From: an uncultured virus (IMG/VR IMGVR_UViG_3300028603_000036)
Taxonomy: Duplodnaviria > Heunggongvirae > Uroviricota > Caudoviricetes
Direction: 5' to 3' (one strand)
Length of the DNA stretch: 64,000 bases
Virus record (IMG/VR): IMGVR_UViG_3300028603_000036
The position numbers were made by a program, and so were the translations under genes. The notes under the pieces are model-generated. The model was not told where the DNA came from. It did not search any database and saw only the letters and a list, made by a program, of their open reading frames with translations. How positions within the stretch are numbered: the first letter of the stretch is position 1; each line of letters begins with the position of its first letter. This document shows positions 1 through 59,696 of this stretch, piece after piece.

Positions 1-242
1 GCATGACGGCTAAGGCTGGCCTGAATGTTCCTGCTATCGCCAAGGCGTTGGGACTGTATCCGGCTGTGCCTGAAACGATGAAAAGTGAAAGCGCCTATAT
101 GCGCAACTATGGCGAGCGCGTCCCGTTTCGTGGCGGCAACTGGAGCTTCGGCGCGGTTGCCGGGGTGTTCGCCGTCAACTTGAACTACTCCCGTTCGAAC
201 GCGCTTTCGATCATCGGCGGTCGGCCCGCTTTTGTGATCTGA
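1..242 (+). CDS. DGR1 target protein, C-terminal fragment (CLec-fold; probable tail fibre/receptor-binding protein), truncated by window start
   Basis: Ends ...RGGNWSFGAVAGVFAVNLNYSRSNALSIIGGRPAFVI, a typical CLec VR end; contains VR1. The tail-fibre role is inferred from position. Confidence 0.9.
   Translation, partial: MTAKAGLNVPAIAKALGLYPAVPETMKSESAYMRNYGERVPFRGGNWSFGAVAGVFAVNLNYSRSNALSIIGGRPAFVI
114..230 (+). repeat. DGR1 variable repeat (VR1)
   Basis: 117-bp ungapped match to 1001-1117; 11 mismatches, all opposite TR adenines. Confidence 0.97.
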
Positions 243-264
243 AATCTGGCGCGTGGAATCTGAA

Positions 265-286
265 GGGGAGGGCGGTAGCCCGCCCC
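265..286 (+). promoter_or_regulatory. DGR1 post-VR hairpin with GGTA (GRNA) loop
   Basis: GGGGAGGGC-GGTA-GCCCGCCCC, 9-bp stem with one mismatch, just downstream of VR1. Confidence 0.75.
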
Positions 287-312
287 ATCACAACTTTCAG
301 GAGTCTTTTGAA

Positions 313-612
313 ATGAACATCACACGCTTGGAGCATTCTGTCATCACGCTTTTTGTTCAGGCGCTTTTCGGCTTGCTCTTCGACAACTGGGTGATCGGTG
401 CCGTGCTGGCCGTTTGCTTCTGGCTAGGCCGGGAGCATGCCCAGGCTGAATATCGCTGGATGCGCCTGTTCGGCAACGGCACCCGCGCCAGCATGCCGTG
501 GTACGGCGGTTTTGACCCCAAGGCATGGGATAAGGATGGGCTGTTTGATTGGCTGGTGCCGATTGTGGCGGCCATCGTTCTTTATGTGGTTGTGAAGGTA
601 ATCGGAGTCTGA
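313..612 (+). CDS. small membrane protein of phage tail regions
   Basis: RBS CAGGAG then ATG at 313; hydrophobic segments; REHAQAEYRW motif. Confidence 0.7.
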   Translation: MNITRLEHSVITLFVQALFGLLFDNWVIGAVLAVCFWLGREHAQAEYRWMRLFGNGTRASMPWYGGFDPKAWDKDGLFDWLVPIVAAIVLYVVVKVIGV

Positions 613-613
613 T

Positions 614-988
614 TTGTCGGAGCAAGTGCAGAAGAATGATTTGCTGATTCGTCAGAAGTGCGAAGCGATGATCGTGTACGGACAGACGGCGGTTCGGCAT
701 TTCCCAAAAATGGAACGGCACGTACTTGGTGCGGAGATTCGCAGAAGCATGTGGTCGCTGCTGCGGCTGATTGTGATCTGCAATAAGCGCTACCACAAGA
801 AAACGACCCTTCAGGATTTGGATGCAGAGCTGGACTTGCTTCGATCACAGATTCGGATTGCAAAGAGTCTTGGCTATCTGGATTTCAAGAAATATGAAAC
901 CTGGGCCAAATTGAATGACGAGATTGGCCGCATGGTAGGCGGCTGGGTCAAGTCCATTGCCGGTGACGGTAATGGGGGTGTCCGTTGA
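614..988 (+). CDS. avd: DGR accessory variability determinant Avd (copy 1)
   Basis: 124 aa; FPKMERHVLGAEIR, LQDLDAELDLLR, EIGRMVGGW motifs; directly upstream of TR1. Confidence 0.93.
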   Translation: MSEQVQKNDLLIRQKCEAMIVYGQTAVRHFPKMERHVLGAEIRRSMWSLLRLIVICNKRYHKKTTLQDLDAELDLLRSQIRIAKSLGYLDFKKYETWAKLNDEIGRMVGGWVKSIAGDGNGGVR

Positions 989-1000
989 AAACGACTGTCG

Positions 1001-1117
1001 GAGCGCGTCCCGTATCGTGGCGGCAACTGGAACAACGGCGCGAATGCCGGGGTGTTCGCCGTCAACTTGAACAACTCCCGTTCGAACGCGAATACGAACA
1101 TCGGCGGTCGGCCCGCT
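1001..1117 (+). repeat. DGR1 template repeat (TR1)
   Basis: Between avd and RT; 10 AAY codons in VR frame; differs from VR1 only at adenines. Confidence 0.97.
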
Positions 1118-1292
1118 CTTGGGGAAAGTCAGAAGCGCCAGGCTCACGGGCCTGACGACAGTACACCCCTCAAAAGGACGGACATCCCCCGGCATCAGGT
1201 TTCTGGAGCCGAAAGATTAAACAGGCGGCCCGAGACAGTAGCTTTGAAAGCGACCCCTCGCAGCCGCCGCCCTTCGGGGTTTGGTTGGTGCA

Positions 1293-2357
1293 ATGGCAAA
1301 GACGTATAACGGTATCTATCCAAATGTTTACAGTTTTGAAGCACTCCACGCGGCATACATCCGCGCCCGGCGCAACAAGCGCGACAGGCGGGAAGTGCAG
1401 CGGTTTGAGCAGGATCTAGAAGGCAATCTGATTCAGCTTCAAAATGAGCTGATCTGGGGCATGTACAAAACCGGGCGGTATCGCACCTTTGAGGTGTACG
1501 AGCCGAAGCAGCGAACGGTGGCCGCGCTTCCGTTCCGTGACCGGGTTGTTCAGCATGCGCTGGTGGCGGCCATCGAGCCGATATGGGAGCGGCGCTTTAT
1601 TCACGACAGCTATGCTTGTCGGCCAGGCCGGGGAACCCATAGGGGTGCTGATCGCGCCCAGGCGATGCTACGGAAGGTGAAGCGCCAGCATGGCCGTGTG
1701 TATGTCCTGAAAGCGGACATCGCCAAATATTTCTATTCCATCGACCATGGCGTACTGAAGGCGCTGCTTCGCAAGCGCATCCGATGCAAGCAGACGCTGG
1801 CCTTGCTCGACAGCATTATTGATTCCACTGCTGACCCAGGCGACCCGCATCCGGTTGGCTTGCCTATTGGAAACCTGACATCGCAGCTTTTCGCAAACCT
1901 TTACCTGCACGAGCTGGATGAGTTCGTAAAGCATGAGCTGCGGGAAAAGCACTACATCCGGTACATGGACGATTTCATGATTGCCAGCCACGACAAAGCG
2001 CACCTGCATGAAGTGCGCGCCATCATCGAGCGGTTCCTGTGGGAGCGGCTGCGGCTGAAAACCAACGCGAAAACGCAGGTGTTCCCTGTGGGTGAGCGCA
2101 ATGGCCGTGCGCTCGATTTCCTGGGCTACAGGATATGGACGACGCACCGGCGCATCAGGAAGAGTTCAATTTCCAGGATTTCGCGCACGCTCAAGCATCT
2201 GCGAAAGCGGTACGCCGCCGGGAAGGTGGAGCTGTCAAAAATCAAGGAATCCGTGATGTCGTGGATTGCCCATGCGAGCCACGCTGAAACCTTCGGCCTG
2301 CGGAACAAGCTGCTGGGCAGTATCCCGTTTTCCCGTGGGGAGGGGCCGGAGCCGTGA
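1293..2357 (+). CDS. DGR reverse transcriptase 1
   Basis: RDRVVQHAL, GLPIGNLTSQ, YIRYMDD; about 354 aa with no maturase or nuclease extension. Confidence 0.96.
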   Translation: MAKTYNGIYPNVYSFEALHAAYIRARRNKRDRREVQRFEQDLEGNLIQLQNELIWGMYKTGRYRTFEVYEPKQRTVAALPFRDRVVQHALVAAIEPIWERRFIHDSYACRPGRGTHRGADRAQAMLRKVKRQHGRVYVLKADIAKYFYSIDHGVLKALLRKRIRCKQTLALLDSIIDSTADPGDPHPVGLPIGNLTSQLFANLYLHELDEFVKHELREKHYIRYMDDFMIASHDKAHLHEVRAIIERFLWERLRLKTNAKTQVFPVGERNGRALDFLGYRIWTTHRRIRKSSISRISRTLKHLRKRYAAGKVELSKIKESVMSWIAHASHAETFGLRNKLLGSIPFSRGEGPEP

Positions 2358-2704
2358 GCAACGCCCACCTTGTCCTGATGACGAAGCTCGAAGAGCTGGA
2401 CGCATACACGCATACCGTTCTGCACCAGTTCCCCAGGATAGAGCGTCACCTGTTGAGCGCCGAAATGCGCGGCACGATGAACCGCGTCATGCGCCAGGTG
2501 GTGGTGGCTTGGAAACGCAAGCAAAAGTCCGGTGCGCTGTTTGACCTGGACGTGGAGATTGAGGTGTTTCGCGGTCTCATCAGAAAGGCTCACCGCCTGG
2601 GCTACATCAATACCCATCGGCTTGAGGTGTGGATGCGGCACACGAACGAGATAGGCCGGATGGTGGGCGCTTGGATTAAGAGCGAAGGGGGTAAGGCCAT
2701 GTAG
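2354..2704 (+). CDS. avd: DGR accessory variability determinant Avd (copy 2)
   Basis: FPRIERHLLSAEMR, LFDLDVEIE, EIGRMVGAW; GTGA overlap with the RT1 stop. Confidence 0.92.
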   Translation: MSNAHLVLMTKLEELDAYTHTVLHQFPRIERHLLSAEMRGTMNRVMRQVVVAWKRKQKSGALFDLDVEIEVFRGLIRKAHRLGYINTHRLEVWMRHTNEIGRMVGAWIKSEGGKAM

Positions 2705-2742
2705 CAGGGTGCTTACACCAGAAAGCGGGCATGAGCTTATAC

Positions 2743-2844
2743 CGGCGGCAATTGGGGCAACGGCGAGAACGCTGGCCTCTTCCATCTCAACGTCAACAAC
2801 GGCGCGGAGATCTCCAACTCCAATCTCGGGGGTCGTCTCGCAAA
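2743..2844 (+). repeat. DGR2 template repeat (TR2)
   Basis: 8 AAY codons; 102-bp match to reverse complement of 16822-16923, mismatches only at adenines. Confidence 0.97.
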
Positions 2845-3007
2845 CGATTTCGCCAGAAGGCGGGCGGCTCATGGGCCGCCGTCCAGTGCAATTCCTTTGG
2901 GGCTTGTGTCCTGACCATGCTGTCAAAGATGAATAGGGCGCCACGGCCAGTATCCGGTAAGCCGGTGAACGTGGTGGCGCCCGTCCACCTCCCCCAACAG
3001 GATTCCC

Positions 3008-4090
3008 ATGCCAAAGACCATCAGCGGACTGTGGCCGCAAGTCGTCGCGTTCGACAACCTGCATCAAGCATACCTTCTGGCCCGCCGCACGAAGCGGTAC
3101 AGGGCAGACGTACTGCAATTCTCTGAAAACCTCGAAGAAAACCTGTTCCATATTCAGGCCGCCCTGGAAGGCAGGATTTGGCGGCCAGGCCCGCAGCACG
3201 AATTTGTCGTGCGGGAGCCGAAGCTGCGCGCCATCCAAGCGCCGCCGTTCGCTGATCGCGTGGTGCATCACGCCCTGGTGGGCGTCGTCGGCCCGCATTT
3301 TGAGCGCCGGTTCATTTCCGATTCATACGCCTGCCGCCAGGGTAAGGGAACCCAGCGCGCGGTCGCGCGTGTGCAGCACTTCCTGCGGGCAGCCAAGCGC
3401 AACCATGGCGACGGGATCTACGTCATGCAGGCCGACATCAGCAGGTATTTCGCCAGCATCCGGCATGACGTGCTCATGCGTGAGGCCGCGCGCGTCATTT
3501 CCGACCCGGACGTGCTTTGGTTGTGGCGGCGCATTGTGGCGGGCTACGGCCACGAGAACGGCGTGGGCCTGCCGGTAGGCGCGCTGACCAGCCAGCTCGG
3601 TGCGAACATCGTTCTGAACAGGCTCGATCACGTCGCCAAAGATGATATGGGCCTGCGGCACTACGTCCGTTACATGGACGACTTTATTGCCGTTTTGCCT
3701 ACCAAGCATGCAGCCCAAGAGGTTATGCAGGTGATGGAGGCGGTGGTGGGCGATCTGGGCTTGCATCTGAATCCGAAGACGGCTGTTCATCCGTGGCAGC
3801 GTGGCGTGGACTTTTGCGGATACAGAATCTGGCCCACGCATATCCTGCCGCGCAAGAGAAATATCAAGCGGGCGCGCGCGGACTTCCGAGAGCTGGCAAG
3901 CCAGTTCTATCACGGAGAGGTTGGGCTGGAGCACGTTCGTCAGAGAGTGGCGTCGTTCTTGGCGTATGCGAAACACTGCAACGCGCAGCGCACAGTGGAG
4001 GGCGTTCTGGGCGACTTGGTGCTTGTGCCTGGCTTACGTGGTATTGTTGCCGCAAATGCAGGAAATAACAGGCAATTTGTATCAAGATAA
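3008..4090 (+). CDS. DGR reverse transcriptase 2
   Basis: ADRVVHHAL, GLPVGALTSQ, YVRYMDD; 360 aa. Confidence 0.96.
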   Translation: MPKTISGLWPQVVAFDNLHQAYLLARRTKRYRADVLQFSENLEENLFHIQAALEGRIWRPGPQHEFVVREPKLRAIQAPPFADRVVHHALVGVVGPHFERRFISDSYACRQGKGTQRAVARVQHFLRAAKRNHGDGIYVMQADISRYFASIRHDVLMREAARVISDPDVLWLWRRIVAGYGHENGVGLPVGALTSQLGANIVLNRLDHVAKDDMGLRHYVRYMDDFIAVLPTKHAAQEVMQVMEAVVGDLGLHLNPKTAVHPWQRGVDFCGYRIWPTHILPRKRNIKRARADFRELASQFYHGEVGLEHVRQRVASFLAYAKHCNAQRTVEGVLGDLVLVPGLRGIVAANAGNNRQFVSR

Positions 4091-4092
4091 TA

Positions 4093-4469
4093 TGATGGTA
4101 CGTGTGCTGGTACGAATCCCGCAGAGAGCGATAAAACCCTTATAAATCAAGCCACTACAAAGCAGGAAACAATAGAGTGGGAGTGATTTTATAACGCGCA
4201 ACGTCGCGCAACAACAAGCAAGAAACAAGCATAAAGCCCTGATTCGTCAGGGTTTTTTGCTTTATGGCCCGGCATCGTCTGGCAATGGCGGGCGGTAACA
4301 AGCAGTAGAAAATGATGGCATTTTTGATGGTACGGTTCATCCCCGTACCATCATTGAACGGCTCGTACCATCACGGCTTTTCAGGTTGGATGATGGTATC
4401 AAAATTCGATAAGCGTTTGATTATTAACGAGAAAACGGGCAAAAAATACCCTTTTTCAATGATGGTATC
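4093..4469. mobile_element. attP-like region: guaA 3'-end core flanked by arm-type repeats
   Basis: ACAATAGAGTGGGAGTGA (TIEWE*) at 4169-4186; eight TGATGGTA-like repeats at 4093, 4105, 4313, 4325, 4344(inv), 4364(inv), 4391, 4460. Confidence 0.85.
4234..4258 (+). terminator. intrinsic terminator after the att core
   Basis: AAGCCCTGA-TTCG-TCAGGG followed by a T run. Confidence 0.75.
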
Positions 4470-4487
4470 AAGTCGAGGAAAAGAGCC

Positions 4488-5735
4488 ATGCTTACTGACG
4501 CAAAGCTGCGGTCGCTGAAACCGCAAGAGAAGCCCTACAAGGTCGTTGATCGTGATGGGCTGTACATCATGGTGCTGTCGAGCGGCAGCATTTCGTTTCG
4601 CTACAACTACCGGATCAACGGGCGACAAGAAACGCTGGTGCTGGGCAAGTACGGGGCGGCTGGGGGATGTATCTCGCTGTCCGAGGCGCGAGAGCTGCTG
4701 ACGAAGGCAAAGAAGACCCTGGCGGCTGGAACGTCTCCTGCGAGACAGAAGGCCAGGGTGAAGCAGCGGATGGGGGAAATGGGGACGTTTGGCGCATGGG
4801 CCAAGAGGTGGCTCGAAGAGTACGCGATGGCCGAATCGACCAGGGATATGCGGCGCTCGGTGTATCTGCGTGAGCTGGAGCCGAAGTTCGGCAGGCTGAA
4901 AATGCCAGAAATCACGCCGGAGGATATTCGCATTCTTTGCGGTGAGATTGTTGATCGTGGCGCCCCGGCTACGGCGGTTCACGTCAGGGAGATTGTCATG
5001 CTGGTGTTCCGGTTCGCCATTGAGCGCGGCTACAGCGGCAAGAACCCGGCCACGGAAATCAGGCCGTCGTCCATTGCCACGTTCGCGCCGCGCAGCCGGT
5101 CGCTTTCGCCGGAAGAGGTGGGGATGATGTGCAGATACCTTGACCGCGTGGCCGCTGGGCCGCAGTTCAAGGTGGCGACAAGGCTGTTGCTGCTGACCAT
5201 GGTTCGCAAGAGCGAGCTGACCAAGGCCACCTGGTCGGAAATCAGCTTCACGAATGCGCTCTGGACGATACCGGGCGAGCGCATGAAACGACGCAACCCG
5301 CACGTCGTCTACCTGTCCAAGCAGGCGCTTGAATACTTCGTGGCGCTGAAGACCTTCGCGGGCGGCTCCGAATACGTGCTGCCGTCACGCTATGACACGG
5401 ATACGCCAATGAGCAGCGCAACGCTCAATCGGGTGCTGACGCAGGTCTACGAGCTGGCCCAGAAGGATGGGCAGCCGCTCGGGAAGTTTGGGCCGCACGA
5501 CTTGCGCCGCACGGCCAGCACCCTGCTGCATGAGGCCGGGTACAACACCGATTGGATAGAAAAGTGCCTGGCGCATGAGCAAAAGGGTGTCCGCGCCGTC
5601 TACAACAAGGCGGAGTACCGCGAGCAGCGCACGGCCATGTTGCAGGACTGGGCGGACATGATCGACCGATGGGAGGCTACGCCGGTTGATGAGACGGTTC
5701 AGCGTTCCTATGAAACGGCGCTGCTTGTTGAATAG
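4488..5735 (+). CDS. int: P4-family tyrosine integrase
   Basis: MLTDAKLRSLKP..DRDGLY arm-binding N-terminus; catalytic R (VRKSE), HDLRR, LAH, Y (RAVYN). Confidence 0.95.
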   Translation: MLTDAKLRSLKPQEKPYKVVDRDGLYIMVLSSGSISFRYNYRINGRQETLVLGKYGAAGGCISLSEARELLTKAKKTLAAGTSPARQKARVKQRMGEMGTFGAWAKRWLEEYAMAESTRDMRRSVYLRELEPKFGRLKMPEITPEDIRILCGEIVDRGAPATAVHVREIVMLVFRFAIERGYSGKNPATEIRPSSIATFAPRSRSLSPEEVGMMCRYLDRVAAGPQFKVATRLLLLTMVRKSELTKATWSEISFTNALWTIPGERMKRRNPHVVYLSKQALEYFVALKTFAGGSEYVLPSRYDTDTPMSSATLNRVLTQVYELAQKDGQPLGKFGPHDLRRTASTLLHEAGYNTDWIEKCLAHEQKGVRAVYNKAEYREQRTAMLQDWADMIDRWEATPVDETVQRSYETALLVE

Positions 5736-6034: not shown

Positions 6035-8035
6035 TCAAGCCCGGCGCTGCATAAAGGCCGCTTCGTGGGCGAAGTTGGCGCGTACAAGCGCCTCGGCCTG
6101 GGCAGGAGCCACGCTGTTGCCGCACATGCGTACCTGCGCGGTGATCGTGAGCGGTATGCGGGGAATCTGGCGTGGGTCGCCTGGAACCTGCACCCCGTCC
6201 TTGAACAGTAGCCGGGGGTCTGGTATCTCATGGATGATGTAATCATCCGGGAACGACTGGGCGCGATATAGCTCCCTTGGCTTGAGCATCCGCAGCGTGA
6301 TGTCCACCAGCACCCACCAGGTTTCGCCGTACTCCATGAGCACCATTTCGGCTTCTCCAGAGAAGTGCTCTGGCAGGTGCTCTTGCAGCAGGGCGGCACA
6401 AGCCTTGGCCTTGCGCCGGTGCTCTGGGGTAAGTGCTTCCGCTGGCACCTGGACGCTGGAAACCAGGCCCATGCGCGCCTTGGTCGGGATGGTGTGCATG
6501 GATTCATCAAGCGCCTGCCACTGGCCGCCGGAGCCGTAGTATTTCACCAGGTAGGCCGTGACCATGCGCTGATTGCTGCCGGTGGCGGTGATCGTAGACA
6601 GCGGGGCGTCTGCTGGCCGACCGTCGCCATCGTAGAACCCGCCGTTGGCCTGTTCAAAGAACGTCGTTACCAGGGCGCTCGGTACGCTGCTGGCCGTCAC
6701 GGAATTAAGCGGCGTCTCGATGTGGCGTATGCCGTTGCTCCACCGCCGCGCGCCGGTGGAGCATGATTCGCCATGGCCCATGTCAACCAGCGTACCGGCC
6801 ACCAGGGCTTGCTTGATGCCTCCGGCGACCACTGTTCCAAGCGGTGCCTCCAGGTCGTGGGTGCGCGGGCGCTGTCCGCTCCTTTCGCCGTAGCCGATAG
6901 TGACCAGGTGCGCCCCGACGGCAGCATGGTGAATGCCACCGGCGGATATAGTGGAAAGAGGGCGCTCTACGCTATGCCCGCCAAGCTGATCTTCCTTGGT
7001 TCCGCGCATCGGGGCCAGGACGGGCATCACCACGGCCCGGTGATTCTCTGTCGTCAGGGTTCCGAACGGCTTGTCTGCTGCAACTGGCTTGCCAGAGTAG
7101 GCCGGGCCGCCCGCGCCGGTCAGGAACGGCGTCAGAACCGGCTCCCCCAGCATGTGGTGATTTCCGGTCGTGACGGTCGGCAGTGGATCTTCAATTCCTG
7201 CGCCTGGGTGGCCGCTGGTGTTGGTGACGATAAAGGGCGCGTCACTGGTGAGGACATGCCGCCAAAGCCCCTTGGCGACGCGCCGCTGGGTGTTGGTGGC
7301 AAGCGCCTTCTTTCTGTCGAAGATGCTTTGCGCGGGCAGGCCGAAGTCGATGCACTCGGCAGCCGTTCGATACGGTGCCAGCATGCCAGCCAGGACTTCA
7401 CGGGAAGCCGGTTCGCCGTGGGTGGCCTCGGGGAAGATGATGGGCAGCCCGTCGCGCCGGGCAACCAGGAACAGGCGCTTGCGAATCGTGGGTGCGCCGT
7501 TATCGCAGGCCCGAAGCTCTTTCCAGTCCACGGTGTAGCCGTGCTGCCGGAGCTGTCGAACGAAGGATTCAAACGTCCGCCCCTTGCGGGCCGGGCAGGG
7601 GCGCATGCTGCCATCGCTTCCTACGACTACCGGCCCCCAGGTCTGGAACTCTTCCACGTTCTCCAGCATGAGTACGCGCGGCTTGGTGAGAGCTATCCAC
7701 CGCATTCCAACCCAAGCAAGCCCACGGATATGCTTCGATACCGGGGTGCCGCCCTTGGCCTTTGAGAAATGCTTGCAGTCCGGGGAGAGCCACACCAGGC
7801 CCACCGGCTGGCTGTTCGTTACCTTGATCGGGTCAACATCCCACACGCTTTCGCACAGGTGCTTGGTGTGCGGGTGGTTGAGGGCGTGCATGGCAAGGGC
7901 TTCGGGATCGTGGTTGATGGCAATATCTACCGGGCGTCCGAAAGCCGCCTCCAGGCCGGTCGAGGTTCCACCCCCACCGGCGAAGTTGTCGATGATGAGT
8001 TCGCCATGGAACGGCAAGGCAAGTTGCGGGCGCAT
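6035..8035 (-). CDS. C5 DNA cytosine methyltransferase
   Basis: DNFAGGGG, SPDCKHFS, LENVEEF, RKRLF, MCGNSV motifs. Confidence 0.93.
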   Translation of the reverse strand: MRPQLALPFHGELIIDNFAGGGGTSTGLEAAFGRPVDIAINHDPEALAMHALNHPHTKHLCESVWDVDPIKVTNSQPVGLVWLSPDCKHFSKAKGGTPVSKHIRGLAWVGMRWIALTKPRVLMLENVEEFQTWGPVVVGSDGSMRPCPARKGRTFESFVRQLRQHGYTVDWKELRACDNGAPTIRKRLFLVARRDGLPIIFPEATHGEPASREVLAGMLAPYRTAAECIDFGLPAQSIFDRKKALATNTQRRVAKGLWRHVLTSDAPFIVTNTSGHPGAGIEDPLPTVTTGNHHMLGEPVLTPFLTGAGGPAYSGKPVAADKPFGTLTTENHRAVVMPVLAPMRGTKEDQLGGHSVERPLSTISAGGIHHAAVGAHLVTIGYGERSGQRPRTHDLEAPLGTVVAGGIKQALVAGTLVDMGHGESCSTGARRWSNGIRHIETPLNSVTASSVPSALVTTFFEQANGGFYDGDGRPADAPLSTITATGSNQRMVTAYLVKYYGSGGQWQALDESMHTIPTKARMGLVSSVQVPAEALTPEHRRKAKACAALLQEHLPEHFSGEAEMVLMEYGETWWVLVDITLRMLKPRELYRAQSFPDDYIIHEIPDPRLLFKDGVQVPGDPRQIPRIPLTITAQVRMCGNSVAPAQAEALVRANFAHEAAFMQRRA

Positions 8036-16730: not shown

Positions 16731-16760
16731 AAAAAAGAAAACGCCCCTGGCGGGGCGTTT
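16731..16760 (-). terminator. intrinsic terminator downstream of the DGR2 target
   Basis: AAACGCCCC-GCCA-GGGGCGTTT then TCTTTTTT on the minus strand. Confidence 0.8.
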
Positions 16761-16766
16761 GGGTGC

Positions 16767-16783
16767 GGCCCGCTCGGCGGGCC
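16767..16783 (-). promoter_or_regulatory. DGR2 post-VR hairpin
   Basis: GGCCCGC-CGA-GCGGGCC, perfect 7-bp stem about 40 bp after VR2. Confidence 0.6.
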
Positions 16784-16814
16784 TTCCCGGTCATGACACA
16801 AGTCTCAAAAGGCA

Positions 16815-17780
16815 CTACACCTTTGCGAGACGACCCCCGAGAAGGGAGTAGGAGATCTCCGCGCCGTCGTAGACGTTGAGATGGAAGAGGCCAGCGTCCT
16901 CGCCGCCGCCCCAATTGCCGCCGTGGTAGGCAACGGCGTTGCGGCAGGCCCAAAAGTAGTCACCGAACGCGCTCTTGTCGCGGTCGTCATACGTCTTCTT
17001 GGGTAGGAACATCGCGCCAAGGTCGAAACCTTCACCGCTTCTGTTCGAGCGGCGGCGGAACCATCCGCTGTCGGGAGCCTGAACGCCGGTGTTGCGATAC
17101 TCGCGGCTGCCGCCTTCATCCCAGACCAGGTAGCGGCCTTCGTTGTCAGTGCGCAGGCCGTCCACCATCTGCCAGACGTTGCCCCACAGGCCGCTGATGC
17201 CGCGCCACGACGCGCTCATTACGCGGGGGTCGTCCACCGGCTGTACGCCGCCGCCGTCAACATGACCACGGGCGATAGCGGTCTGGGCATCCGGGGTGCC
17301 TAGCTCGATAAGTGCCAGCATCTGCACCGCCGCAAGCTGGTGGGCGCTCCACAGCATCCAGCCGTCGCCGCGCGCTGCGGCGCGGGCCTGCATGGTCGGG
17401 AAGTCGATATTGGTCAGCGGCATATGTCCGGGCTGGCTGCCCAGCATGTCGCCGTCCGGGGTGCCTTGGTACGCGCCCAACCAGAACCGGCCAAGGTCTT
17501 CGCCCTGGTGGCGGAACGCCGGGTGCAGCTTGAAGCCGTCTTCCGGGCCGGGGCTGCACCAGATTGCCTTCTTACCGGCGTTGTCGCCGTGCTTGATGGT
17601 CGTGGAGCGGTAGTAGTAGGCGGGGATCTCGATCATGTGCTGATCGTCAAAGAGTGCGGGCTTGATGCCTGCATAGAGCGCGTCGAATGCGCCCGGCTCG
17701 ACTTCGACGCTGTTGCCGTCGGCGTCAACGCGCTGCCAGTCGGTCAGTTTCTTGCCGACGATGATTCCTTGAATGCTCAT
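16815..17780 (-). CDS. DGR2 target protein (CLec-fold), remote from its cassette
   Basis: WRGISGLWGNVWQMVDG; ends YHGGNWGGGEDAGLFHLNVYDGAEISYSLLGGRLAKV; carries VR2. Confidence 0.93.
   Translation of the reverse strand: MSIQGIIVGKKLTDWQRVDADGNSVEVEPGAFDALYAGIKPALFDDQHMIEIPAYYYRSTTIKHGDNAGKKAIWCSPGPEDGFKLHPAFRHQGEDLGRFWLGAYQGTPDGDMLGSQPGHMPLTNIDFPTMQARAAARGDGWMLWSAHQLAAVQMLALIELGTPDAQTAIARGHVDGGGVQPVDDPRVMSASWRGISGLWGNVWQMVDGLRTDNEGRYLVWDEGGSREYRNTGVQAPDSGWFRRRSNRSGEGFDLGAMFLPKKTYDDRDKSAFGDYFWACRNAVAYHGGNWGGGEDAGLFHLNVYDGAEISYSLLGGRLAKV
16822..16923 (-). repeat. DGR2 variable repeat (VR2)
   Basis: Matches TR2; 8 substitutions, all at TR adenines. Confidence 0.97.
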
Positions 17781-22835: not shown

Positions 22836-23701
22836 CGCATGATGAATTGGCACTCGACTTGGCGCGCCACCTGCGCGAGAGAACCGGACGCATTGTCTGG
22901 ACTGACATGCAGCTTGGCCCCGTCGGCTCGCCGCGCCCTGACGCCTACAGCATCGAGCCGTCCTACACGAAGTTTCGGCCCATTGCCTACGAAGTCAAGG
23001 TGTCGCAGGCCGACTACCGGCGCGACATTACCGCTGGCAAATGGCAAACCTACCTGCCGTTCGCTGCGGGCGTCGTATTCGCGGCCCCGTCTGGGCTGAT
23101 AGAGCGCTCATCGTTGCCAGAAGGCTGCGGTCTGATTGCGCGCAATGCAGATGGCTGGCGGACGGTGAAGGCACCCACGCTGCGGGCCATTGAAACGCTG
23201 CCCCATAGTGCGTGGGTCAAGCTGTTTATTGACGGCATGGGCCGTGAAGCTGACCGGCTAATCCGCGAAAGCCGCCCCGGCCTGTCAGACGAATGGATGG
23301 CGCGGCGCACCGTAGGGGAGAAGCTGGGCAGAGAAGTTTCCCAGATCCTGGTGGAAAGGGGGTATGCGGAAAGCCGGTACGCGCTGGAGACAAAGCGCCT
23401 GCGCGATGCCGCCGACGGCATGACCGAAGAAATCCGGGAGCATGAGCGGCGTATCAGGGAGCGGGTGGAGCGCGATGCGGCTGCCATCGACCAGGTACGC
23501 GCAACACTGGCCCAGGCGCTGGGGCTTCCCGCCAATTCCTCTGTGCGAAGCATTCAGGCTGCGGCTGAAAGCCAGTCCTACCGTCTGTCGAAAGACGGGG
23601 AAATCCAAGAACTGCGACACGCCCTGTCAATGGCCCAGCGGGCGCTGACTGGCGGGCTGTCCGTGCCTGCCCTTGCGACCAATGGAGGGCAGACGGCGTG
23701 A
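22832..23701 (+). CDS. PD-(D/E)xK-like (MmcB-like) protein
   Basis: RPDAY..AYEVKVSQADYRRD. Confidence 0.65.
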   Translation: MTHDELALDLARHLRERTGRIVWTDMQLGPVGSPRPDAYSIEPSYTKFRPIAYEVKVSQADYRRDITAGKWQTYLPFAAGVVFAAPSGLIERSSLPEGCGLIARNADGWRTVKAPTLRAIETLPHSAWVKLFIDGMGREADRLIRESRPGLSDEWMARRTVGEKLGREVSQILVERGYAESRYALETKRLRDAADGMTEEIREHERRIRERVERDAAAIDQVRATLAQALGLPANSSVRSIQAAAESQSYRLSKDGEIQELRHALSMAQRALTGGLSVPALATNGGQTA

Positions 23702-24204
23702 ATGTGTTGTTTGAAACGGGTGCCGCCGGTTCTGTTGCGACGACGCACGACTGGCTGACGCCGCCGGAGATTCTGGCCCCCCTTGGTGAATTTGATCTTG
23801 ACCCCTGCGCCAGCGAGTTTCAGCCGTGGCGCACGGCAAAGCAGCAGCTCACGATCCGCGACGATGGCCTGGCGCATGAATGGGCTGGCCGCGTCTGGTG
23901 CAACCCGCCATACGGCCCGCATGCGGCTGAATGGCTGGCGCGGTGCGCAGCCCATGGCGATGCGATTGCCCTGGTGTTCGCCCGTACCGAAACCGCGTCC
24001 TTTCACGAGCACGTCTGGCCCAAGGCCGACGCGCTGCTGTTCTTGCGCGGGCGAATCAAATTCCATCTTCCTGGTGGGCGGCGGGCAGTCAGCAATGCGG
24101 GCGCGCCGTCCGTTCTGGTCGCGTTCGGCAAGGCCAACGCTGACGCACTGGCTTCCTGCGGCTTGGCGGGTGCATTCGTACCGCTGCGGGAGGCTGGGGA
24201 ATGA
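23698..24204 (+). CDS. phage N6-adenine DNA methyltransferase
   Basis: DWLTP, FDLDPCA, DDGL, VWCNPPY, FLRGRIKF. Confidence 0.9.
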   Translation: MNVLFETGAAGSVATTHDWLTPPEILAPLGEFDLDPCASEFQPWRTAKQQLTIRDDGLAHEWAGRVWCNPPYGPHAAEWLARCAAHGDAIALVFARTETASFHEHVWPKADALLFLRGRIKFHLPGGRRAVSNAGAPSVLVAFGKANADALASCGLAGAFVPLREAGE

Positions 24205-25427
24205 CGGAACAAATCAAACACCTGTCGGCTGAAGCAGTCATGGCGCCGTTCGTTGGCCGCGATCACCTGACGAATCGTGAGCTGTTCGGCCAGCTTGCGT
24301 TACAGCTTGACCTGCCCGAGAACGTGATTGATGCCCGCGCGCCTGTAGGCAAGTCGGGTAAGGAGTGCAACCTGTTCGAGCGCAAGGTGCGCTGGCACCA
24401 GCAGACGCTGAAGCACCTGGGTGTCCTGGAGCGAGTGGATCGCGGAACCTGGAGGTTGAGTGGGGAGGCGCAAAAAGAGCTGACGCCCGCGCCCAAGCGT
24501 TCCGTCCTGCTGGCCTTTTCAACGGACTTGGGGTGCGCCCTGTGGGCAAGTGCGGAAGACGTTTTCAGCGGCCTGGGGGAAGAAATAACCCTGGCCTTCA
24601 CGTCGCCGCCGTACCCGCTGGCAAAGCAGCGCGCATACGGCAATGTTGACCAGTCGGCCTATATCGACTGGCTGCTACCGATCATGGAGCCGGTCGTAAA
24701 GAGCCTGCGGCCAGGCGGGAGCATCGTCCTGAACGTCGGCAACGATATTTTCATGCCCGGTTCCCCGGCAAGATCGCTGTACGTTGAGCGGTTGACGCTG
24801 GCGCTGCACGACAGCCTTGGGCTTCACCTGATGGAGCGCTTTGTCTGGCACAACCCGACGAAGCCGCCCGGCCCCGTTCAGTGGGCATCCATCAAGCGAG
24901 TGCATCACAACACGGCCTACGAGCATGTCCTGTGGTTCACCAATGACCCGGAGCTGGTGCTGGCCGACAACCGCCGGTGCCTGCAAGAGCACACAGAGAA
25001 GCACCGGCGCTTCATGGGGTCTGGTGGTGTGAAGCGGTACGCAAGGAATACCGGCGGCGCATACACGCTGCGAGAGGGCAGCTTTGGCGCGCACACCGAG
25101 GGCGCAATAGCCCGGAACGTGCTGACCATCCCGCACCGATGCCCTGACCAGCAGCCTGCGCGCGATTTCGCCTCTGCCAATGGCCTGCAAGCCCATCCGG
25201 CGCTGATGCCGGTGAGGCTGGCGGAGCACTTTGTTCGATTCCTGTCCGAAGCAGGAGATTTGATTGTTGACCCGTTCGGTGGCTGGGCCACAACGGGCCG
25301 TGGCGCCGAGCTGAATGGCAGGCGCTGGCTTGTCACCGAACGATGCCGGGAATACCTGATAGCTGCTGCGCAGCGTTTCAGGGATGCCCCTGGCTTCTAT
25401 TCGCCGATGGAGTGCAGCAATGCGTGA
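24201..25427 (+). CDS. N4/N6 DNA methyltransferase (beta class) with Mrr_N-like N-terminus
   Basis: TSPPY, HPALMP, DPFGG; FERKVRW..RGTWRLS. Confidence 0.88.
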   Translation: MTEQIKHLSAEAVMAPFVGRDHLTNRELFGQLALQLDLPENVIDARAPVGKSGKECNLFERKVRWHQQTLKHLGVLERVDRGTWRLSGEAQKELTPAPKRSVLLAFSTDLGCALWASAEDVFSGLGEEITLAFTSPPYPLAKQRAYGNVDQSAYIDWLLPIMEPVVKSLRPGGSIVLNVGNDIFMPGSPARSLYVERLTLALHDSLGLHLMERFVWHNPTKPPGPVQWASIKRVHHNTAYEHVLWFTNDPELVLADNRRCLQEHTEKHRRFMGSGGVKRYARNTGGAYTLREGSFGAHTEGAIARNVLTIPHRCPDQQPARDFASANGLQAHPALMPVRLAEHFVRFLSEAGDLIVDPFGGWATTGRGAELNGRRWLVTERCREYLIAAAQRFRDAPGFYSPMECSNA

Positions 25428-26355
25428 TTACTCAAAGGTCGGCCCGAAGTTCTGGATTGGAGCCACTGGCAAGCGGCTGCGGACAGCGGGCGTGGAGGCG
25501 CAGATCGTCGCCATGTACCTGCTGACCAGCCCACACGCCAACATGCTGGGCCTGTATTACTGCCCCGAAATGTTCATTGCGCACGAAACCGGACTGGGCT
25601 TGGAAGGGGCTTCAAAGGGGCTTCAAAGGGCCATCGAAGCGGGGTTTTGTGAGTATGACGAGGCTTCGGAGGTGGTGTGGGTGATCGAAATGGCTTCGTA
25701 CCAGATCGGCAATGCCCTCAAGCCCAATGATTTGCGCGTGAAGGGGGTGCAGAACGAGTACGGCTCACTGCCCGATAACCCTTATTTGGTGCGGTTTTAC
25801 GAGAAATACAAGGACGCTTTCTGCATGTCCGTATGCAGGGGAAAACAAAGCCCCATCGAAGCCCCTTCCAAGCCCCATCGAAGCCAAGAACAGGAACAGG
25901 AACAGGAACAAGAACAGGAGAAAGAAAAACAAGGCGCTGCCGCGCCCGGTGTGTCTGGTTCGGATTCGCCTGACGGCGATGAGCCTGGAAACCCTGCTGC
26001 GCCTGAAGACCCGCCCGGTGACCCTGCTGACGACGAAAAATCAAAACGCGCCCTGGGTATCCGGGAGCTGGTGGCCGAGGGCGTTGACCGGCAACACGCC
26101 GAGGACTGGCTGAAGATCCGTCGGGCGAAGAAAGCCCCGCTGACCGAAACCGCCCTGGACATCGTGAAACGAGAGGCCGCGAAGGCCGGGATAACGCTGG
26201 CGGAGGCAATCGCCCATGCGGCCAGCTCGAACTGGGCCGGGTTCAAGGCGAAATGGCTGGATCAGCCTGACGGCGACCGTTCGCGCCAGCCAGCAGCAAG
26301 CGGCAGATTTGCCGGATTTGAAGATCGAAATTACGGAACTGGAGGCCGACTGTGA
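25420..26355 (+). CDS. replication initiator (O-like)
   Basis: Precedes DnaC-like gene; internal iteron-like repeats and QEQEQE linker; WAGFKAKW C-terminal motif. Confidence 0.8.
   Translation: MRDYSKVGPKFWIGATGKRLRTAGVEAQIVAMYLLTSPHANMLGLYYCPEMFIAHETGLGLEGASKGLQRAIEAGFCEYDEASEVVWVIEMASYQIGNALKPNDLRVKGVQNEYGSLPDNPYLVRFYEKYKDAFCMSVCRGKQSPIEAPSKPHRSQEQEQEQEQEQEKEKQGAAAPGVSGSDSPDGDEPGNPAAPEDPPGDPADDEKSKRALGIRELVAEGVDRQHAEDWLKIRRAKKAPLTETALDIVKREAAKAGITLAEAIAHAASSNWAGFKAKWLDQPDGDRSRQPAASGRFAGFEDRNYGTGGRL
25596..25925. repeat. candidate origin: 11-bp repeats in two inverted clusters plus a (CAGGAA)n tract
   Basis: AAGGGGCTTCA-type repeats at 25596-25644; AAGCCCC(A/T)TC repeats at 25848-25885. 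Confidence 0.6.
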
Positions 26356-47625: not shown

Positions 47626-48114
47626 ATGAAAAACCTACTGTTTAGTTTTGAAGACCTTTCGACCAAGGATAAGGCCGTCAAGCAGGCCGCCCGCTACTTT
47701 TCCCGCGCGGGCGCGAACGTCGTTCAGCAAGAGGTTATCCCGACCGTCAAACGCACTTCCGGTATCTCGTACCGTGAAATGGCGCTGACTTTCGCGGACT
47801 CCCAGCGCGTCCTGCTGCGCATCAAGCAGTCCGGCGACATATTCCAGGTGGTGCTGAACGGCAAGCCTCTGCCGATCAAGAGCCAGGACGATCACGTCAA
47901 GGCCATCGCCGAAATCGTGAAGGCTATGGATGCGGGCCGCTCCCGGTTCCAGAAGCTGATGGCCGCCGCCAAGGTTCGCCCGCCGGTGGGCATTCGCACT
48001 GCCGCCCCGCGCATGGAGCAGGTGCTGACCGAAAAGCGCGACGCTCTGCGCAGCGCCATTGATGATGTTCGCCAGCAGATAGCGTCCTTGAGGGGCGCGG
48101 CAGCGGCAGCATGA
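47626..48114 (+). CDS. DarA-related (Hdf-like) protein
   Basis: KRTSGI..FADSQ..GDIFQVVLNGK resembles the DarA N-terminal domain; next to DarA-like gene. Confidence 0.65.
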   Translation: MKNLLFSFEDLSTKDKAVKQAARYFSRAGANVVQQEVIPTVKRTSGISYREMALTFADSQRVLLRIKQSGDIFQVVLNGKPLPIKSQDDHVKAIAEIVKAMDAGRSRFQKLMAAAKVRPPVGIRTAAPRMEQVLTEKRDALRSAIDDVRQQIASLRGAAAAA

Positions 48115-53231: not shown

Positions 53232-53243
53232 GGAAAAGAGAAA

Positions 53244-59200: not shown

Positions 59201-59696
59201 TGCCCATGGCATGAAGCTGACCGTGGCCGACTTTGACGGTAGCCCTATGTGGGTGCAGCGGCAGATTGAGGAAACGGTTACGGTGGACGCCCTGAAGGCT
59301 GCGCTGACCGGCAATACTGAGCACGACATTCGTGAGCAGGCCGCCGCGTTCGTTCGTGGTGCGACGGGCTGGTTTGACTGGGAAGGGAAGGATACCAGCG
59401 ACTACCTGCCGTATGAGTTCCGCATCGCCATTGTCAACGCCGGGCGCAAGGCCATGGCCGGAACCGAGCAGCCTTCCAGCCAGTCGCCCAATGACGTGGT
59501 GGGCATCCGGGGCAACACCATGGCCTGGAAAGACACGATCAAGAGCTGCGCCGTTCGCGCGGGAGCAGGCAAGTACAAGTGGGATAAGCGCTCTCTGTCA
59601 TGGAACGTGTACCGTTCCACCTGGGATTACCTGGTTGCCAACTACCCCAAGGCGGCAGAGCAACTCGAATTGATCGGCGCGACCCGTTCACTGTAA
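53244..59696 (+). CDS. DarB-like N6-methyltransferase plus SNF2 helicase
   Basis: YYTP, LDPCAGVG, NVPF; GVGLGKT, DEAH, TATP, EQRNGRGVRQGN; 2150 aa. Confidence 0.88.
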   Translation: MLNRNSLDDAAGGVLARLKLVGELARIKGELNDVGAGPVAAMKRLKLVSRANQIRASLGAAAPQASAAPEAAPVAEPQAAAAPEPQPEGGPEEVLEPRNQTAQYYEFDPNRKPAQRKKDNAEAMALLARIDAGEVAASSLTPEEKLALAKYSGTGGALIGADGKKGSAYEYYTPKPIAEGIWSLMEELGFAGGKVLDPCAGVGIFGATAPLNAAIDAVELNETSGRINGLVNAGPGYSATVAPFERVAAATPDEQYDAVVTNVPFGGVADRGGNQLLDDRYQKEPLQNYFILRTLEKLKPGGLAVFITPPRCVTGKGGKEEELRVKASYMAEFLGAYRLPNAVFGTASADTMTDVIAFRKYSREALDKIAELREQSPKALVEANVQWQPFVNGRYFDGEGKRFILGDFVPKDPNKFRDVDRVVTRQPIAEIARMLKRFPGSRVDWEMLGTVETTPIVYRDGDTITQSGQTLQMQDGRWVPMARTESSASMAELVGKLATPYSAFEGRVQWADAVQCVEHMIETSQSLDIPAWLRGAVAEIRHLKDEGQRAQFWNAGIVGMAADQVFEERMGEETGVNFAEEYPALSDAMQRVSVAARKRPAAIGGKLRDGLAFIGNHYQKKTGFSAVWRGDVRQEAPTVEITADASFEGLRYKTKSIWVSMEDARAIYGDGFDPYADADWCVSPDGKSVTRADDYYIGNYAEFLRRVDADIASAENEDIRAKLLRQKIDAESRIDRVDVSKLSFNLFSPHVTHEEKAEFLRRFVHPSAAVVYDEKTGVKRVDIDVPGSRLTDREKLLNRIGDYLKNGTITLGGAKLDMPDAQALQELRRMVNTANEQFNGWARGNRAVISRLEATASDPERLRFRQVEDEAPMPIPGMSEGLTLHGYQNAYVRKTSREFGGINGFGVGLGKTFTALAATQYAQSIGVKKKTLFVVPNSVLSNWRKEAMRAYSSTDDCLFVGLRIAKDGRATISSSNFDADLTAVMENRHSKIFMTLEAFERIRMRDETISEYEAFMRRADASFSESMDKKEDERAKSKQAGLLSILSDKRGSAPYIEDMGVDSVVFDEAHVFKNSAQTVDFKGAKFLSMSPASKRGIDAQAKAWFIRGQSPLKDGVLMLTATPITNSPLEMYAMLSLAVGHERVNDLCLGIKGADNFMEMMCIKENQDDVTMDGVARTTDVFVGLNNVGVLRKSIGEVATIKSAADVGGQIIVPEREEKPTPVTLPDAVVERLKLYKSAFRYAIDELAEKSPNRGDPEAYDQVAQHFGEELNLIGHPFNLINKMTMLIADPELDQRASFYSYLSTQADKAKQAIEQFNARKITEERPRPGPMTDESAIVGKKKVKDSGGNETELLKIEVRARAIDGGRVVIDSIDPDVQSAFEAIADKIGLDLDVSVPPKLAAMLENFQNEQASPRGIDASGKATSVVKQIVFCDILPLHNKIKRLLTRRAGVPSSAIAIITGRTNNTPDEILAVQDGFNGVGEDSKYQTVIANEKAEVGINLQKGTQAIHHLTIGWTPDSLEQRNGRGVRQGNATERVNLYYYDADGTFDTSKRSMVNKKADWIGQVMDVNGTGSVSVAGGLSREQMEALIDVVGDVDAMRRMQETIAAKEAESRASNNRDRQMINLDTIRKQNTFLNDNRAADSFVIRKIIGLFGLERQADKLRDRIANPKATATAVARNESLLAELMASIGGLRRQIEESATLHRSQWSGGGQTREPATLDSFFAAVRSGKKQKDDDIEAMLRGRSYPSFGLEIVEGGPITNEWQAEVDMAESMIEEAKAAFARQAEEAGGYPADVAEAIARGDGVVYNGKPLTHGTFVRVAGGLAVLALENGRPRAFGRSMDGSPLAADTSAVMAGEWIYRGTAGYDSCLTDAAQIEDIINGDGRIENGFNTVVPEVAQRRKVEALAAYRVFEYRLPQPYFPYVVVPTDADKSEVQRSIFESQKAVVRSFDGGSFVVAGDVAVERANSRSDDRFKLLREYAVAHGMKLTVADFDGSPMWVQRQIEETVTVDALKAALTGNTEHDIREQAAAFVRGATGWFDWEGKDTSDYLPYEFRIAIVNAGRKAMAGTEQPSSQSPNDVVGIRGNTMAWKDTIKSCAVRAGAGKYKWDKRSLSWNVYRSTWDYLVANYPKAAEQLELIGATRSL

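What the first reader, a model, noticed from the sequence alone, without database searches (positions are those of the whole stretch)
1..4090. Two complete, independent DGR cassettes in tandem in one phage
Seen: avd1-TR1-RT1 is followed directly (GTGA overlap) by avd2-TR2-RT2. The two Avd, RT and TR copies are clearly divergent, so this is not a recent duplication. Each TR has its own VR with adenine-only differences (11 in 117 bp; 8 in 102 bp), and all four ORFs look intact. Known: model phage DGRs such as BPP-1 have one avd/TR/RT set, and multi-target DGRs normally reuse one TR. Inference: two orthogonal mutagenic retrohoming machines share one operon.
Basis: partly seen in the sequence, partly recalled or inferred. 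Interest (0 to 1): 0.93.

Follow-up and report, generated by a model that had tools for sequence, protein, structure and literature searches.

The report
Two working hypermutation cassettes, one phage
A 72-kb temperate phage carries two different, intact diversity-generating retroelements back to back, one rewriting a tail-module protein next to it and the other a small lectin-like protein encoded 12.7 kb away among the early genes; it is a rare layout of a well-known system.

Summary
avd1-TR1-RT1 (614-2357) runs by a GTGA overlap into avd2-TR2-RT2 (2354-4090). TR1 differs from VR1 (114-230) at 11 positions and TR2 from VR2 (16822-16923, minus strand) at 8, all template adenines. The RTs are 42% and the Avds 41% identical.

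The contig is a circular ~72.5 kb temperate myophage. It broke inside VR1, and its two end copies differ at 5 sites, all TR1 adenines. A metagenome contig matches 599 nt around VR2 except at 9 sites, all TR2 adenines. So both pairs were rewritten recently.

The tandem layout recurs in 6 of 51 genome loci (Pigmentiphaga, Comamonas, Burkholderia, Pseudothauera, Azonexus) and 5 of 80 IMG/VR loci. Each VR follows its own TR at non-adenine differences, except in one recombinant. All four genes are under purifying selection.

Sister phages with the same backbone have only cassette 2, and its single TR serves both a long tail fibre and the free early-operon protein. The likely history is a fibre-tip module swap that brought its own DGR, with the resident DGR kept for the remote target.

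Biochemical orthogonality is untested. Genomes with several DGRs and loci with two RTs are already in print, and this scan noted similar layouts on other DNA. It is a new variant of a known kind.

The parts
1..242 (+). 3' end of target gene 1 (TG1, 370 aa; starts at C3:71588 across the circular junction). It is a stand-alone DGR variable protein at the end of the tail module.
   Evidence: ORF across the junction. phrog_2889, E 5e-136. PDB 5vf4_A (TaqVP), E 6.6e-104.
114..230 (+). VR1
   Evidence: 11 of 11 mismatches to TR1 at adenines. The two contig-end copies differ at 5 sites, all TR1 adenines. Isolate run X3 differs at 14 listed sites, all TR1 adenines.
265..286 (+). GC-rich hairpin downstream of VR1, a possible target-recognition element
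   Evidence: DNA fold. The role is inferred by analogy only.
253..612 (+). 119-aa accessory ORF of the cassette-1 module
   Evidence: phrog_1443, E 3e-32. It is present between TG1 and avd1 in dual loci and in cassette-1 single loci.
614..988 (+). avd1
   Evidence: PF22296 bAvd, E 2e-31. phrog_3206. dN/dS 0.04-0.07.
1001..1117 (+). TR1 (24 A, all at codon positions 1-2; 8 AAC codons)
1116..1268 (+). Spacer RNA 1 between TR1 and RT1
   Evidence: Rfam RF02921 RT-14 RNA at 46.0 bits, just under the gathering score of 48.1; E 2e-5.
1281..2357 (+). RT1 (probable start at 1293); YMDD and LPIGNLTSQ present
   Evidence: PF00078. phrog_1423, E 7e-147. Translation. dN/dS 0.07-0.10.
2354..2704 (+). avd2, its start overlapping the RT1 stop
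   Evidence: PF22296, E 7e-24. dN/dS 0.04-0.13.
2743..2844 (+). TR2 (23 A; 6 AAC codons)
2845..3007 (+). Spacer RNA 2 between TR2 and RT2
   Evidence: No Rfam match at E<=10. A conserved fold across 20 relatives has 14 of 31 pairs with compensatory changes.
3008..4090 (+). RT2; YMDD and LPVGALTSQ present
   Evidence: PF00078. phrog_1423, E 6e-119. PDB 8ub7_A 'Reverse transcriptase', E 2.5e-48. dN/dS 0.16-0.21.
4175..4187 (.). attP crossover core
   Evidence: In isolate run X3, a 126.6-kb contig leaves the phage at 4187 and a 71.2-kb contig enters it at 4175 (tables 7 and 8).
4233..4256 (+). Terminator-like hairpin ending the DGR operon
   Evidence: No such site lies between RT1 and avd2.
4488..5735 (+). 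Tyrosine integrase
   Evidence: PF00589 and arm-binding domain. phrog_1.
16815..17780 (-). Target gene 2 (TG2, 321 aa), a free C-type-lectin-fold variable protein in the leftward early operon, upstream of the erf and recE-like genes
   Evidence: phrog_5302 and phrog_2889. AlphaFold model with pLDDT 92.2. Foldseek best match TaqVP at E 1e-13, then Mtd, FGE and TvpA.
16822..16923 (-). VR2
   Evidence: 8 of 8 mismatches to TR2 at adenines. Metagenome locus L249 is identical over 599 nt except at 9 sites, all TR2 adenines.
16739..16788 (-). GC hairpin (16761-16788) followed by an intrinsic-terminator-like hairpin (16739-16760) and a T run, downstream of VR2
   Evidence: DNA fold, z -4.2. Sequence.

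Best explanation
The phage carries two functional DGRs of different lineages in one operon, and they divide the work. Cassette 1 (TG1, a 119-aa ORF, avd1, TR1, spacer 1, RT1) is a self-contained module at the end of the tail genes. It copies TR1 with adenine errors into VR1, at the C-terminal lectin-fold tip of TG1. Cassette 2 (avd2, TR2, spacer 2, RT2) has no neighbouring target. Its cDNA goes in trans to VR2, at the tip of TG2, a free 321-aa lectin-fold protein in the early leftward operon. TG2 lies 12.7 kb away in the circular genome. Since attP sits between RT2 and int, it would lie roughly 60 kb away in the integrated prophage. Shown: the anatomy, adenine-only TR/VR differences, recent rewriting of both VRs, concerted TR-to-VR evolution in relatives, purifying selection on all four genes, and separate RT clades. 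Inferred: co-transcription as one operon; that each RT-Avd pair uses its own spacer RNA; and the history. In that history an ancestor like today's single-cassette-2 sister phages (one TR, two targets: a long tail fibre and free TG2) had its fibre-tip target replaced by a TG1 module that brought its own DGR. The resident DGR was kept because TG2 still needs it.
For: Anatomy and adenine-only mismatches. Divergence of 42% and 41%. VR1 in use: the circular contig's two end copies differ at 5 of 5 TR1-adenine sites, and isolate run X3 shows 14 of 14 listed VR1 differences at TR1 adenines. VR2 in use: L249 matches 590 of 599 nt, and all 9 differences lie in VR2 at TR2 adenines. TR2 has 23 A, so chance is about 2e-13. 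Relatives: the tandem layout is in 6 of 51 genome loci and 5 of 80 IMG/VR loci, always with a remote TG2. Where TRs of two phages differ at non-adenine sites, each VR carries its own TR's base. For cassette 2 this is window vs L095 10/10, vs L098 20/20, vs L106 26/26; for cassette 1, 25/26 to 46/46. L099 and L100 share an identical TR2 but have different VR2s. dN/dS is 0.04-0.21 for all four genes. The RT tree puts RT1-type and RT2-type on opposite sides of a 98% branch, each mixed with single-cassette relatives (FastTree). Cassette-1-only loci are L151, L153, L154, L155 and L162. Five of five 70-76 kb sister records (tail sheath 71-78% identical) have one TR2-type template matching two VRs, in a long fibre ORF (852-986 aa open frame) and in a free TG2 orthologue. 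TG1 and TG2 are DGR variable-protein homologues.
Against: Orthogonality is not tested, and the spacers share a 5' hairpin, a CAGUGCA/CAGUACA motif and a 3' hairpin, so cross-use is possible. In the likely source run, one contig spans VR2 with no difference; contigs drop rare variants, so this neither shows nor excludes lower activity at VR2. Cassette 2 is dispensable in some relatives. In L033 a deletion joins Avd2 residue 76 to RT2 residue 54 and removes TR2. In L096 TR2 and VR2 differ at 11 non-adenine sites. Cassette-1-only loci nest inside the dual clade. L106's RT2 sits in a different subclade, so the layout arose or was exchanged more than once, and the direction of events is not rooted. 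The tree is FastTree only; the IQ-TREE run did not finish. TG2's function and location are unknown.
Confidence: 0.8

Rival explanations
1. One enzyme pair does the work. Both templates are read by a single RT-Avd pair, and the other pair is redundant and on its way out, so the cassettes are not orthogonal.
For: The two spacers share an overall architecture and motifs. Cassette 2 is deleted in L033 and absent from L151, L153 and L154, which nest among the dual phages. This scan noted two-template, one-RT loci in other phages (unchecked AI notes).
Against: All four genes are intact and under purifying selection (dN/dS 0.04-0.21) in every intact dual phage examined. The RTs and Avds are only 41-42% identical. 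In the BPP-1 system the flanking RNA makes many essential contacts with bRT-Avd (10.1101/2023.10.23.563531; abstract and section 10 read).
Confidence: 0.13
2. Cassette 2 is a frozen relic. VR2 was written once and is no longer diversified in this phage.
For: A single VR2 allele stands in the contigs of the likely source run. L096 and L033 show decay.
Against: L249 is identical outside VR2 over 497 nt but differs at 9 TR2-adenine sites. Each VR2 tracks its own TR2 in 5 of 6 related species' prophages. ORFs are intact and dN/dS is low.
Confidence: 0.05
3. Assembly chimera or recent tandem duplication at about 2354.
For: None found.
Against: Contigs of 4 of 4 runs cross 2354. The same junction stands in 11 loci from other records. 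The copies are 41-42% identical and fall in different RT clades.
Confidence: 0.01

Closest known systems
Bordetella phage BPP-1 DGR (mtd-avd-TR-brt), the prototype
   Same: Cassette 1 has the same order: a stand-alone lectin-fold target with a C-terminal VR, then avd, TR, spacer and RT. Mismatches are adenine-only, AAC codons are present, and it sits at the end of the tail module of a temperate phage. RT2's best solved relative is 8ub7_A, a 328-aa reverse transcriptase; that this entry is bRT is my recollection, not checked. The TG2 model matches Mtd (1yu0) at E 1.7e-4.
   Different: Here there are two avd/TR/RT sets instead of one. An extra 119-aa ORF lies between target and avd1. The targets are closer to TaqVP than to Mtd. 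The second set's target is remote and on the other strand.
Single-cassette-2 sister phages of the same backbone (IMG/VR records behind L009-L012 and L014)
   Same: Backbone (tail sheath 71-78% identical), an avd2-TR2-RT2 type cassette at the same place, and the free TG2 orthologue in the early region as a remote target.
   Different: They use one TR for two targets: a long fibre ORF next to the cassette, and free TG2. In the window's phage the adjacent type-2 fibre target is gone, and TG1 with its own cassette stands there.
Genomes with several DGRs, and DGR loci with two RTs or several TRs, reported in surveys
   Same: More than one DGR in one genome in about 10% of complete DGR-bearing genomes (PMC5758913, passage). 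[quoted passage not shown] Non-adjacent targets are also described (PMC5758913, passage).
   Different: Those are counts without anatomy. I found no description of two divergent complete cassettes fused into one phage operon with separate adjacent and remote targets. The search 'tandem DGR / dual DGR / two complete, distinct, separate or independent DGR' gave 6 papers, none of the 4 listed about retroelements. A search of that survey's supplementary tables for RT-TR-RT patterns found nothing. Subscription journals are not covered.
Thermus aquaticus variable protein TaqVP (PDB 5vf4)
   Same: TG1 is a clear sequence homologue (E 6.6e-104). The TG2 family profile (E 1e-13) and the TG2 model (Foldseek E 1e-13) match it best.
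   Different: TaqVP is a bacterial chromosomal DGR target; these two are phage-borne. TG2 shares only 18-19% identity with it in the structural alignment.

Membership tests
Diversity-generating retroelement (each cassette) | Reverse transcriptase of the DGR type with an intact catalytic YMDD | tested here: met
   RT1 and RT2: PF00078; phrog_1423 at E 7e-147 and 6e-119. YMDD is seen in both, as are LPIGNLTSQ and LPVGALTSQ. That (I/L)GxxxSQ marks DGR RTs is recalled, not tested.
Diversity-generating retroelement (each cassette) | TR/VR pair whose differences fall at template adenines | tested here: met
   11 of 11 and 8 of 8. The same holds in relatives: 5 of 6 species for cassette 2 and 6 of 6 for cassette 1, with 0-2 non-adenine sites in the core.
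Diversity-generating retroelement (each cassette) | VR at the 3' end of a gene for a C-type-lectin-fold (or Ig-fold) variable protein | tested here: met
   TG1 matches TaqVP at E 6.6e-104. The TG2 model (pLDDT 92.2) matches TaqVP, Mtd, FGE and TvpA. VR1 ends 12 nt and VR2 5 nt before the stop codon.
Diversity-generating retroelement (each cassette) | Accessory protein Avd | tested here: met
   PF22296 bAvd at E 2e-31 and 7e-24.
Diversity-generating retroelement (each cassette) | Structured spacer RNA between TR and RT, with a stem-loop just downstream of TR | tested here: inconclusive
   Spacer 1 scores 46.0 bits against RT-14 RNA, under the gathering score of 48.1. Spacer 2 has no Rfam match but a conserved fold with 14 of 31 covarying pairs. 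Both have a GC stem with a small loop after TR. Binding is not testable here.
Diversity-generating retroelement (each cassette) | 3' end-of-homology element (IMH/IMH*) and a hairpin downstream of VR | tested here: inconclusive
   A C/T difference at the 3' edge of TR1/VR1 is kept in 7 of 7 phages. GC hairpins follow both VRs. Their role is inferred from PMC3240598 (abstract in the listing only).
Diversity-generating retroelement (each cassette) | Evidence of actual diversification | tested here: met
   VR1. VR2. Concerted TR-to-VR changes.
   Only indirect: 41-42% identity, different RT clades, and no cross-matching VR.

The most novel reading that the evidence does not exclude
The two co-resident DGRs are truly orthogonal ribonucleoprotein machines. 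The second is kept only to hypermutate TG2, a free lectin-fold protein of the early operon that is not a tail part. On this reading the phage uses targeted hypermutation for something other than receptor binding by the virion, for example a diversified binder acting early in infection or in the lysogen.
Probability: 0.2. Interest if true: 0.8.

Novelty: new variant of a known kind. Interest (0 to 1): 0.55.

Why it matters
DGRs are being turned into programmable mutagenesis tools. The library lists E. coli reconstitution and DGRec preprints (listing only). A natural pair of divergent, co-expressed RT-Avd-RNA sets, each with its own target, would let one measure how specific a DGR enzyme is for its RNA. 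It might also provide two channels that do not cross-talk.

The comparison with sister phages shows a DGR being retained after its neighbouring fibre target was replaced. This implies selection to keep diversifying a small early-operon lectin whose role in phage biology is unknown.

The system itself is a textbook DGR, and several DGRs per genome are already on record, so the finding refines what is known rather than overturning it.

Tried and rejected
1. Read depth and variation at VR2 in the source sample. Only Logan contigs were served. The stretch 144-207 inside VR1 has no listed long piece in X1, and an X2 contig ends at 16872 inside VR2. The 'other letters' table was also cut (851 rows not shown), so VR2 alleles in X3 and X4 could not be read.

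2. The IQ-TREE 'quick' tree of 151 RTs did not finish in 288 s. It was replaced by FastTree on the 104 rows that are at least 46% identical to a query, so 47 more distant rows were dropped.

3. Rfam gave nothing for spacer 2.

4. Avd2 has no solved relative by sequence at E<=0.01.

5. Pfam gave no family for TG1 or TG2 at E<=0.001.

6. Order-level sample of the host bin: RT2-like hits in 8 of 401 genomes, and a tandem pair only in the window's own genome. Whether the phage contig belongs to that bin's organism was not examined.

7. Phage GenBank records: no record covers 80% or more of window 1-4400. The best is Aeromonas phage phiWae15, at 29% coverage and 67% identity.

8. The PDB code 8ub7 was not found in the Handa et al. 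preprint text, so its identity as bRT stays a recollection.

9. Complex prediction was not used, because a score could not separate cognate from cross pairs.

10. Recent duplication and misassembly were considered and rejected (see rivals).


Full report
**What is there.** The window is the first 64 kb of a 72,616-nt contig whose last 158 nt repeat its first 158 nt. The element is therefore a circle of about 72.46 kb.

PHROG and Pfam scans mark it as a temperate myophage with some P1-like genes. It has terminase, portal, sheath, tube and baseplate genes, and DarB-, Hdf- and Ulx-like antirestriction genes. It also has a tyrosine integrase and a leftward early operon with a CI-like repressor, Erf, RecE-like, RdgC, SSB and methylase genes.

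At the end of the tail module the order is as follows:
- TG1 (370 aa, crossing the contig junction)
- a 119-aa ORF
- avd1, TR1, a 160-nt spacer and RT1
- avd2, whose GTG overlaps the RT1 stop codon
- TR2, a 160-nt spacer and RT2
- a terminator-like hairpin, and then int

**Checking the observation.** TR1 (1001-1117) and VR1 (114-230) differ at 11 sites. TR2 (2743-2844) and VR2 (16822-16923, opposite strand, the last 100 nt of the 321-aa gene TG2) differ at 8 sites. Every one of these is an adenine in the template. The adenines sit at codon positions 1 and 2, with 8 and 6 AAC codons respectively.

- RT1 and RT2 are 42% identical, and Avd1 and Avd2 41%.
- Both RTs keep YMDD, and both Avds match PF22296.
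- The whole genome holds no further copy of either template.
- Contigs of four of four public runs cross the RT1/avd2 junction.

The exceptions are that VR2 lies far outside the stated span and that the TG1 gene wraps around the contig end.

**Are both cassettes in use?**

For VR1: the assembly broke inside VR1, and the two end copies differ at five sites, all TR1 adenines. An isolate assembly that carries the phage as an integrated prophage (run X3) differs from the window at 14 listed VR1 sites, all TR1 adenines.

For VR2: a metagenome contig (L249) is identical to the window over 599 nt except at nine positions. All nine lie inside VR2 at TR2 adenines. With 23 adenines in TR2, chance is about 2e-13.

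In the likely source run, one contig spans VR2 unchanged. Contigs hide minor variants, so relative activity in that sample is open.

**Relatives.** The tandem layout TG1-ORF-avd1-RT1-avd2-RT2 occurs in 5 of 80 IMG/VR loci and 6 of 51 species-representative genome loci found with RT2. The genomes are Pigmentiphaga humi, Comamonas nitrativorans, Burkholderia sp. LMG 13014, Pseudothauera nasutitermitis, Pigmentiphaga sp. NML080357 and an Azonexus MAG. Three IMG/VR loci have the same VR1 as three genome loci and are probably the same prophages.

Every one with enough sequence has a remote TG2 orthologue. Where the templates of two phages differ at non-adenine positions, each VR carries its own template's base:
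- Cassette 2: 10/10, 20/20, 18/18, 18/18 and 26/26 for the window against five relatives.
- Cassette 1: 25/26 to 46/46.

Two phages with identical TR2 have different VR2s. This concerted pattern shows that information kept flowing from each TR to its own VR after these phages diverged. All four genes show dN/dS of 0.04-0.21.

There are exceptions:
- The C. nitrativorans prophage pairs the TR2 of one sublineage with a VR2 that looks like another's, with 11 non-adenine mismatches.
- One IMG/VR provirus has a deletion from Avd2 residue 76 to RT2 residue 54, which removes TR2.

**Where the layout came from.** In a FastTree of 104 RTs, the RT1-type and RT2-type enzymes lie on opposite sides of a 98% branch. 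Each is interleaved with single-cassette relatives.

Cassette 1 occurs alone in L151, L153-L155 and L162. Cassette 2 occurs alone in many phages. Five of these are 70-76 kb records with the same backbone, their tail sheath being 71-78% identical. In all five, one TR2-type template matches two VRs with adenine-only differences in the core. One VR is at the end of a long fibre ORF (852-986 aa open frame) next to the cassette. The other is in a free TG2 orthologue in the early region.

The simplest reading is that the window's lineage replaced the type-2 fibre tip with a TG1 module that carried its own DGR. It then kept the resident DGR for the remote target. The direction is inferred, not rooted. 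L106's RT2 sits in another subclade, so exchange happened more than once.

Another (e1-4878738) reports a second tandem cassette with a remote target on other DNA. So the scan has seen this kind of layout before.

**The parts in detail.**
- TG1 is a close homologue of the Thermus aquaticus DGR variable protein (5vf4, E 6.6e-104).
- The TG2 family profile hits the same entry.
- A confident TG2 model (pLDDT 92.2) matches TaqVP, then Mtd, formylglycine-generating enzymes and TvpA. This is the C-type-lectin fold of DGR targets.
- TG2 is followed by a GC hairpin and an intrinsic-terminator-like hairpin, and VR1 is followed by a GC hairpin.
- Spacer 1 matches Rfam RT-14 RNA just under threshold, at 46.0 against 48.1 bits.
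- Spacer 2 has no Rfam match. It does have a conserved fold, with compensatory changes in 14 of 31 pairs across 20 relatives.
- Both spacers begin with a GC stem-loop soon after TR and share a CAGU(A/G)CA motif. Handa et al. place the Avd-binding stem-loop in that position in 207 of 278 DGRs (10.1101/2023.10.23.563531, section 10).

**What is not shown.** Whether each RT-Avd pair reads only its own RNA cannot be tested here. The shared spacer architecture leaves cross-use possible. The 41-42% identity and the many RNA-protein contacts described for BPP-1 (abstract) argue for specificity. TG2's role is unknown. It has no fixed neighbour apart from the downstream small ORF and erf, and it lies outside the tail module.

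**Novelty.** Several DGRs per genome (PMC5758913, passage) and loci with two RTs or several TRs (PMC11661182, section 9) are in print as counts. My searches found no description of this fused two-cassette operon with split adjacent and remote targets. They also found no description of the module-swap history. Subscription journals and some supplements were not visible.

I rate it a new variant of a known kind, of moderate interest. It is a clean natural test bed for DGR specificity, and a pointer to an unexplained hypermutated early-operon protein.

Noticed in passing
window 4175-4187 (and 4090-4480): In isolate run X3 two contigs meet here, so the phage integrates by a 13-nt core between RT2 and int. 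The AT-rich stretch around it holds repeated GGTACG / ATGATGGTA-like words that look like integrase arm sites. In the C. nitrativorans and P. humi loci an integrase gene still follows RT2 directly, so those prophages may recombine at another place.
   Followed up: partly
window 48351-59696: Two giant ORFs of 1626 and 2150 aa. The second matches a methyltransferase/helicase PHROG and DarB-like antirestriction. Hdf-like (47626-48114) and Ulx-like (59707-60120) genes flank them. This is a P1-type Dar antirestriction set in an integrative 72-kb myophage.
   Followed up: no
window 25594-25888: Inverted and direct repeats of a GGGGCTTCAAAGG-type word inside the DnaD/O-like replication gene (25384-26355). 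They look like origin iterons.
   Followed up: no
window 253-612: The 119-aa ORF between TG1 and avd1 (phrog_1443) shares about 71% nucleotide identity over 141 nt with a hypothetical or membrane-protein gene of many lambda-like E. coli phages. It travels with cassette 1 in relatives.
   Followed up: partly
L096 / L085 (Comamonas nitrativorans prophage): TR2 is identical to that of the P. humi prophage, but VR2 carries the non-adenine bases of the Burkholderia/Pseudothauera-type TR2. This is a recombinant in which template and target no longer match (11 non-adenine differences).
   Followed up: partly
L033:5784-6828: A deletion fuses the first 76 codons of avd2 to codon 54 of RT2 and removes TR2. 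The TG2 orthologue of the same provirus (L086) is still an open 322-aa gene.
   Followed up: partly
L108:8474-9445: In one Burkholderiaceae MAG contig, a TG2 orthologue (77% identical) lies directly downstream of RT2, in addition to an upstream type-2 target. This is another arrangement of the same parts.
   Followed up: no
window 6035-8035, 23698-25427: Three separate DNA methyltransferase genes lie outside the Dar region: one C5-cytosine type of 666 aa and two more in the rightward early operon.
   Followed up: no
L098, L100 VR2: The same T-to-G difference (GAGTTC to GAGGTC) between TR2 and VR2 appears in two prophages that share a TR2, but not in a third. It is a non-adenine change that may be selected or inherited.
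   Followed up: no
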